A DNA stretch of 64,000 nt, taken from contig OZ024740.1 of assembly GCA_964016885.1 (NCBI GenBank), positions 392,708,001 through 392,772,000 on the forward strand. The letters are read 5' to 3'. Both the position numbers and the translations under genes were made by a program. This DNA comes from Eledone cirrhosa. Its lineage: Eukaryota. Under the pieces are notes generated by a model. The model ran no database searches. It was not told where the DNA came from and saw nothing but the letters and a program-made list of their open reading frames with translations. Shown here piece after piece: positions 17,510 to 18,252 of this stretch. Numbering within the stretch: the stretch's first letter is position 1; every line of letters begins with the position of its first letter.

Positions 17510-18252
17510 AAGGAATTTATATCTAGTAACATTTATTACACAGATGCATATCAATGCTAGCAAATATATAGGTTTTGTCTTATTAACAATGTGGTCCAAT
17601 GCATGGGGTTGCGGAACAATAATATGAGAGACGTAAAATAAGAAAATTATAAAATTAACTTACTTACTAAAAAATCACTTCCAACTAATTAGTTTCTGGA
17701 ATGGAGTAAATATATTTTCCGAAGAAACACATAGAAAATCATTCCGTCATCAGGAAAGTCTTTTTCCGTATAGGTCTCCAGGCATAGCGAGGATACTGGA
17801 AACTTATTAAAAAAATAATTCAGTGGAATGGAAATAGCAAAGCGTGGACTGGATTCCAAGCCATTGAGAAAATCACTGCCTCCTCGCTGTGGCAAATTCA
17901 AAAAGAATCAATCACGTGACACCGAGGTCAATCAGTGGAAAGCGAGTGGTTATTAAGACAGCGGCCAGCTTACTACCATAGTAGCAGTCATGGCCAAATA
18001 TTGCTCGACAAATGAATTGGAGATAATTATAAGGAATTTATATCTAGTAACATTTATATACACACAGATGCATATCAATGCTAGCAAATATATAGGTTTT
18101 GTCTTATTAACAATGTGGTTCAATGCATGGGGTTGCAGAACAATAATATGAGAGACGTAAAATAAGAAAATTATAAAATTAACTTACTTACTAAAAAATC
18201 ACTTCCATTTGCATTTTATAATTTTATAATTTTCTTATTTTACGTCTCTCAT
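17510..18252 (-). mobile_element. HHR-containing non-coding unit (524 nt period) in partial tandem plus a short inverted piece
   Basis: Direct repeat 17510-17682 / about 18030-18206. Inverted piece 18219-18252. (TA)n flanks. Confidence 0.8.
17677..17759 (-). ncRNA. Canonical-core type I hammerhead ribozyme
   Basis: Minus strand: actttc-CTGATGA-c ggaatg...cattcc a-GAAAC taatta GTT-ggaagt, with a self-complementary stem III. Confidence 0.82.

What the first reader, a model, noticed from the sequence alone, without database searches (positions are those of the whole stretch)
17510..18252. Partial tandem whose 5' end coincides exactly with the predicted hammerhead cleavage site
Seen: on the minus strand the HHR at 17677-17759 predicts cleavage after GUU, leaving 5'-GGAAGUG. 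The upstream partial repeat begins at exactly that GGAAGTG (18206), and homology stops there. The site-to-site unit is 524 nt. Inference: the inserted cDNA was copied from an RNA whose 5' end was made by ribozyme cleavage, a genomic record of HHR activity in vivo.
Basis: partly seen in the sequence, partly recalled or inferred. Interest (0 to 1): 0.8.

Follow-up and report, generated by a model that had tools for sequence, protein, structure and literature searches.

The report
Hammerhead retrozyme with one misread base
This is one copy of a non-coding repeat carrying a predicted self-cutting RNA, likely pasted in by a Penelope-type jumping gene; its start at the predicted cut site is matched by few other copies, but across the family one particular base changes far more often than any other when a copy is made, which likely marks a chemically modified RNA letter.

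Summary
The coordinates hold: 524-nt unit, upstream repeat starting at 18206 (one shared T at 18207), at the predicted GUU|G site. But element sequence does not stop there: an inverted arm (18219-18254) follows. The copy is a two-armed, (TA)n-inserted, Penelope-type hammerhead retrozyme; arms start at two fixed unit positions (61, 179). The scan noted this architecture before on other DNA.

Ends pile up instead 9-21 nt downstream, at the foot of helix I. A minority of cleaved templates remains possible (one copy has both arms ending at the site).

Unexpected: unit position 474, a U in the ribozyme's stem-II hairpin, differs between repeats of the same insertion in 19/44 and 10/27 loci (background 1.4-1.9%) and 8/25 in a sister subfamily, already in the youngest copies, yet is quiet in a 203-unit satellite array. 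It is likely misread during reverse transcription, perhaps a modified base. No RNA data were available.

The parts
17507..18207 (-). Direct arm: unit positions 524/1-524 then 1-179; 1.34 units of a 524-nt repeat
   Evidence: L001 1493-2193
17683..18206 (-). One full 524-nt unit, predicted cleavage site to predicted cleavage site; 35% GC; folds better than shuffles (z -3.4)
17665..17770 (-). Type I hammerhead: helix I 5' strand 17770-17754, CUGAUGA 17753-17747, extra C 17746, helix II with hairpin extension, extra A 17697, GAAA 17696-17693, palindromic helix III 17694-17683, predicted cut 17683|17682, helix I 3' strand 17682-17665
   Evidence: read; conservation; pairing is my manual reading
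17733..17733 (-). Unit position 474: U closing the stem-II extension hairpin; T in this copy, hypervariable between repeats of single insertions across the family
18208..18218 (.). 11-nt filler at the head-to-head junction (partly a slipped duplicate of unit positions 28-35)
18219..18254 (+). Inverted arm, unit positions 26-61; its outer end at position 61 is the family's second fixed start site
17477..17506 (.). (TA)n target, 3' side (boundaries approximate)
18255..18326 (.). (TA)n target, 5' side (boundaries approximate)

Best explanation
This is a two-armed copy of a 524-nt hammerhead-bearing non-coding repeat sitting in a (TA)n tract, likely made by a Penelope-type reverse transcriptase from a mostly uncut multimeric RNA, and the family likely records RNA structure and one misread RNA base rather than routine ribozyme cutting. 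Shown: arms begin at two fixed unit positions (179 and 61) facing outward into (TA)n, have scattered 5' ends, usually cross the predicted cut site, and share their haplotype within an insertion. Inferred: both target strands are nicked, each 3'-OH primes cDNA internally on the same RNA or on RNAs from one source locus, and the two cDNA ends are joined head to head with microhomology or short filler. Inferred: synthesis tends to stop at the foot of the folded helix I (positions 9-21, peak 17-18), and a minority of templates end at the cut site; this copy may be one. Inferred: U474 is misread in roughly one copy event in five, most simply because it is chemically modified in the RNA.
For: Fixed ends: 197 exact ends at position 179 plus TATA; 63 of 100 such copies carry an adjacent inverted arm whose outer end is at 57-62, nearly always 61. 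Read-through: 160 of 187 passes. Within-insertion haplotype sharing: 4.8% (tandem) and 4.4% (other arm) differences at polymorphic sites against 32.4% between loci. Private variants carried by two of three units in one insertion (L063, L064, L101, L056 and others) point to a multimer with distinct units, not one monomer circle read repeatedly. Hot spot 9-21: 16 against 5.5 expected, scan-corrected p 0.02; position 18 genome-wide 14 junctions in 23 of 44 dispersed matches examined, of 3433 words, against 2 in 15 of 31, of 2174 words, at control position 66. Position 474: 19 of 44 and 10 of 27 loci discordant, 12 of 34 same-register arm pairs against 6 of 405 at other polymorphic sites, non-T most frequent in the youngest third (28/65, 18/65, 21/65), homologous site top-ranked in a sister subfamily, 8 of 25 against 3.1%, and only 4 C and 1 A among 203 array units amplified at the DNA level. 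PMC11167929 reports for a Penelope-like enzyme in vitro: both strands cut and extended, internal initiation at two sites, AT-rich targets, uncut RNA as the dominant substrate.
Against: No RNA of this family was seen, and no cleavage or modification was measured. No autonomous partner with homologous ends was found (one high-copy family, 30 loci tested). The two start sites are 118 nt apart, not the 30-40 bp of the published tail. Stop rate rises with arm length, so the constant-rate expectation overstates the second-pass excess; several boundaries are uncertain by microhomology. Arm lengths also cluster at 525-570 nt (15 against 6.3), which fits a monomer circle better. Discordance at 474 is somewhat commoner in older insertions (18/36 against 11/35, p 0.09); no 5' ends pile up at 474; a second sister-subfamily site (412) scores as high; array homogenisation could hide a DNA-level hot spot.
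Confidence: 0.62

Rival explanations
1. One reading: templates are commonly ribozyme-cut RNAs; cDNA runs off at the 5'-OH end and 8-20 nt are usually trimmed at joining, so the 9-21 cluster and the exact-site copies are both cleavage records.
For: L145 has both arms ending on the site, L144 at 524 and 8, this copy at 524 and 26; both arms end in 523-26 together in 5 of 6 cases, Fisher p 1e-4; long direct arms stop in 523-21 on the second pass 7 times against 1.2.
Against: Exact-site rate is at background; 160 of 187 passes cross the site; the peak at 17-18 matches the foot of helix I, which needs no cut; symmetric junctions also occur at unrelated palindromes (58, 121, 151); second-pass stop rate is about twice the overall rate everywhere.
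Confidence: 0.25
2. Templates are ligated monomer circles (the published retrozyme route); the enzyme rolls through the re-ligated site and stalls after one turn on meeting its own cDNA.
For: Arm lengths cluster at 525-570 nt in both arm types (15 against 6.3; neighbouring bins 6/7.2 and 1/5.2); repeats within an insertion share haplotype; circles are documented for animal retrozymes (PMC7229834).
Against: Private variants split the units of single insertions, often shared by the two arms in the same register but absent from the next repeat, which one monomer circle cannot give without later conversion; both models may operate.
Confidence: 0.3
3. Position 474 is not modified: it is a structure-induced slip of the enzyme at the U.G pair closing the hairpin, or a DNA-level or assembly hot spot.
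For: The site borders an ATAT run and a hairpin; T-to-C, the commonest change (38 of 76 substitutions), would perfect the hairpin; neighbours 473 and 475 are mildly raised.
Against: All three substitutions and deletions occur; the partner G487 is quiet; 7 of 71 multi-unit loci are uniformly non-T, so the changes are real and inherited; the array in the same assembly shows only its two founder bases; contigs of three public runs show single-difference pieces centred on this site (letters not given, one sample).
Confidence: 0.35

Closest known systems
Animal non-LTR retrozymes (Cervera and de la Pena 2020, PMC7229834; proposed non-autonomous Penelope derivatives, bioRxiv 10.64898/2026.07.22.740005)
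   Same: Short, low-GC, non-coding tandem unit with a type I hammerhead; dispersed partial tandems and one long array; palindromic helix III suited to dimer-mode cleavage.
   Different: Unit is 524 nt against 150-450; inserted as two opposed arms with fixed starts in (TA)n; GUU triplet and an extra A before GAAA; a per-copy hypervariable base was not in the passages I read.
Penelope-like element insertions (Penelope/Poseidon, Neptune, Naiad; bioRxiv 10.1101/2021.04.23.441226; mechanism PMC11167929; hammerheads PMC4209133)
   Same: Partial tandem, inverted 5'-truncated copy, (TA)n target, two internal start sites, extra nucleotide between core positions 9 and 10.1, uncut RNA as main template.
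   Different: No ORF; start sites 118 nt apart rather than a 30-40 bp tail; no homologous autonomous partner found.
L1 twin priming (recalled, no call)
   Same: Two cDNAs primed from both target strands and joined in inverted orientation.
   Different: Here the second start is fixed and the arms overlap in sequence because the template is multimeric.

Membership tests
Animal non-LTR retrozyme | Type I hammerhead in a short tandem unit | tested here: met
   Core near-invariant in 143-170 unit copies; manual fold; Rfam gave no match
Animal non-LTR retrozyme | Non-coding, low GC (<45-50%) | tested here: met
   35% GC; no ORF of 150 aa or more over 17507-18254
Animal non-LTR retrozyme | Unit size 150-450 nt | tested here: not met
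   524 nt; sister subfamily 522 nt; the range is descriptive
Animal non-LTR retrozyme | [quoted passage not shown] | tested here: not met
   This copy has one hammerhead; other loci (L064, L069) and the C4 array meet it
Animal non-LTR retrozyme | Expressed as linear and circular RNA; self-cleaves | not testable with these tools
   No RNA holder listed
Penelope-type insertion | Partial tandem with inverted 5'-truncated copy | tested here: met
   63 of 100 copies
Penelope-type insertion | Two fixed internal start sites (tail) | tested here: met
   Positions 61 and 179; spacing 118 nt differs from the published 30-40 bp
Penelope-type insertion | Microsatellite / AT-rich target | tested here: met
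   (TA)n at the outer ends of nearly all arms listed; the 100-copy set was selected on TATA
Penelope-type insertion | Hammerhead with extra nucleotide between 9 and 10.1 and palindromic helix III | tested here: met
   C461 144 of 146; palindrome 513-524; features from PMC4209133
Autonomous Penelope-like element | Encodes reverse transcriptase and GIY-YIG endonuclease | tested here: not met
   No ORF
Non-autonomous derivative of a named Penelope family | Ends homologous to a partner's pseudo-LTR | tested here: inconclusive
   30 loci of one endonuclease-bearing family show no homology; L200 holds a separate insertion; other families not tested

The most novel reading that the evidence does not exclude
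The genome holds a fossil read-out of the RNA that was copied: U474 in the ribozyme's stem-II hairpin is a chemically modified base that the Penelope enzyme misreads in about one pass in five, yet U stays the majority in both subfamilies, so the modified U would be needed for mobility; stops at the foot of helix I show the ribozyme was folded while being copied. This would be an RNA modification of a retrozyme detectable from DNA alone.
Probability: 0.38. Interest if true: 0.78.

Novelty: new variant of a known kind. Interest (0 to 1): 0.52.

Why it matters
The role of hammerheads in Penelope-type elements is open (stated in bioRxiv 10.1101/2021.04.23.441226; PMC11167929 found cutting unnecessary in vitro). 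This family gives an in vivo count: about 85% of passes read through the site, and ends mark the ribozyme's fold more than its cut. The hypervariable base names one nucleotide to test for an RNA modification, and suggests a general way to find modified bases in mobile RNAs by comparing repeats within single insertions.

Tried and rejected
The first 30 loci were not used for end statistics because the query selected for arms of about 690 nt or more. Rfam scan: nothing. Sequencing runs: no RNA holder listed; the three runs are contigs of one sample, and laying them could not span the junction or name the letters at 474. The C4 satellite array as master source: rejected, its common variants are absent from dispersed copies (317G 155 of 203 against 0 of 115). 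Partner search: one family, negative. Pfam did not name the window's endonuclease fragment; its Neptune-like label is my recalled reading of the cysteine and YIG motifs. An alternative hammerhead core using the GAAA at 488-491 was rejected by hand (no helix I partner). A likelihood fit of the misreading rate at 474 was not obtained, so the 'one in five' figure is hand arithmetic from 25 of 81 discordant pairs. In one search the script flagged 16 junctions; I dropped L231 and L232 as internal deletions. In one search L140 and L179 were dropped as duplicates and arms under 90% identity left out, 5 of 30 loci (overlaps and an array) were dropped. Literature searches returned no listing that describes cleavage-site pile-up, helix I stops or a misread base in retrozyme copies; most subscription papers are not covered, and I opened no supplements. 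One search used a guessed animal name and found nothing useful; the organism is not identified.

Full report
Positions 1-524 below are unit positions on the minus strand, 1 being the G after the predicted cut (window 18206).

Observation. The two GGAAGTG words lie at 18206 and 17682, 524 nt apart. Direct homology extends one base further, to the T at 18207. Upstream come an 11-nt filler and a 36-nt perfect inverted copy of positions 26-61 (18219-18254), then (TA)n; the 3' end is position 179 at 17507, again in (TA)n. The hammerhead is type I: CUGAUGA (454-460), an extra C, helix II, an extra A, GAAA, a 12-nt palindrome as helix III, GUU|G, and a helix I that by my manual reading extends to U437-A18. 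These bases are near-invariant in the family. Rfam does not score it and the monomer's lowest-energy fold is not the hammerhead, as expected for a motif that needs a dimer (PMC4209133, passages and section 5).

Family. The genome has 197 exact ends at 179 followed by TATA. I took the first 100 listed, chosen without regard to their 5' ends; 63 have an adjacent inverted arm whose outer end is at 57-62, nearly always 61. Older sister subfamilies share both ends, and the word at 18-45 occurs 3433 times. This matches the Penelope pattern of partial tandem, inverted truncated copy and (TA)n target (bioRxiv 10.1101/2021.04.23.441226, passages) and the in vitro finding of two internal start sites, both strands extended and uncut RNA as main substrate (PMC11167929, parts 1-2 of 4). 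Earlier scan notes describe the same two-arm layout in other families.

Of 163 arms, one ends at the site (5' base at 523-1): the window's own; 1.2 are expected. Of 187 passes that reached position 22, 160 crossed the site by 15 nt or more. Genome-wide, the exact word 1-28 occurs 550 times; 1 is preceded by non-T and 4 by T then non-T; reading them gives junctions in L141, L142 (this window), L144 and L145 and a substitution in L143. Four over two positions is about 0.36% per position, against 0.23% overall and about 0.19% at control position 66 (2 junctions in 15 of 31 dispersed matches; 2174 words). There is no pile-up at the cut.

Where ends do gather. The best 13-nt window is 9-21 (16 against 5.5, scan-corrected p 0.02). 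At position 18, 14 of 23 examined dispersed matches (of 44) are junctions, about 0.8% of 3433 words by extrapolation. Positions 17-18 are the foot of helix I, where an enzyme moving 3' to 5' meets the folded ribozyme; they are also the 5' edge of a predicted hairpin. Against over-reading: the stop rate rises with arm length and symmetric junctions also form at other palindromes. I give this copy about 40% of being a true run-off at a cut end.

Template. Repeats within one insertion share their haplotype (4.8% and 4.4% differences against 32.4% between loci). Yet private variants often mark two of three units, for example both arms in register but not the next repeat (L063, L064, L101), which points to multimers with distinct units. 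Arm lengths cluster just above one unit (15 against 6.3), which points to circles; circles and multimers are both documented for animal retrozymes (PMC7229834, passages). A 114-kb array on C4 is a derived satellite, not the source.

Position 474. This U closes the stem-II extension hairpin (window 17733). It differs between repeats of the same insertion in 19 of 44 loci (background 1.4%) and in 10 of 27 in an independent set (1.9%); overall T154, C38, G21, A17, gap 3. It differs in 12 of 34 same-register arm pairs against 6 of 405 at other polymorphic sites. It is present in insertions with no other internal difference, and non-T is not commoner in older units, though older insertions are slightly more often discordant (p 0.09). 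The homologous base is the top site, tied with one other, in an 88%-identical sister subfamily (8 of 25 against 3.1%). In 203 array units it shows two founder bases plus 4 C and 1 A. So the change most likely arises when RNA is copied to DNA. All three substitutions plus small deletions at one site is the pattern of a non-instructive base (my knowledge of RT signatures; only search listings seen). Seven of 71 multi-unit loci are uniformly non-T, so changes are inherited, and U staying the majority suggests selection (inference). The chemistry is unknown; the cut junction itself is copied without error.

Limits. No RNA run was listed; contig lays were of little use; no partner element was found. 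For the 2026 preprint I read part 1 of 5 and passages. Searches showed no listing on these points, within the library's limits; supplements were not opened.

Verdict. A Penelope-mobilised hammerhead retrozyme of a known kind. The headline coincidence is real but not a family rule. The helix I stops and the misread base are the parts worth following.

Noticed in passing
G000:C4:18,609,300-18,723,100 (L268-L280): Head-to-tail satellite array of about 215 units of the same repeat, with inverted pieces at both ends; some units carry core-breaking changes; derived from one haplotype.
   Followed up: partly
window 14531-15985: 727-nt inverted arms, 96% complementary, each with a hammerhead-like core (15897 plus strand, 14619 minus strand); likely another two-armed family, unrelated by BLAST.
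   Followed up: no
window 16436-16802: 181-nt inverted arms, 99% complementary, beside (TA)n.
   Followed up: no
window 38477, 42432, 43478 (minus strand): Three related type I hammerhead-like motifs near Penelope-type ORF fragments; similar stretches lie in 4-5 of 30 loci of the endonuclease family.
   Followed up: partly
window 44633-45271 (+), 40838-41578 (-), 52949-53470 (+), 55758-57416 (-): Fragments of Penelope-type ORFs; the first has a cysteine cluster before a YIG motif and belongs to a very high-copy family (150 scored matches at 92% or more).
   Followed up: partly
window 22184-27521 (+): LINE-like element with ORF1, endonuclease and reverse transcriptase frames.
   Followed up: no
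window 7933 (-) / 8314 (+) and 55496 (-) / 57693 (+): Two further inverted pairs beginning with CUGANGA-like words.
   Followed up: no
sister subfamily position 412 (L283-L311): A second site discordant within insertions (8 of 25 loci), G to T or A; not raised in the young subfamily.
   Followed up: no
L152, L153, L173, L185: Arms joined exactly at the helix III palindrome (511-513), suggesting two cDNAs anneal through it.
   Followed up: partly
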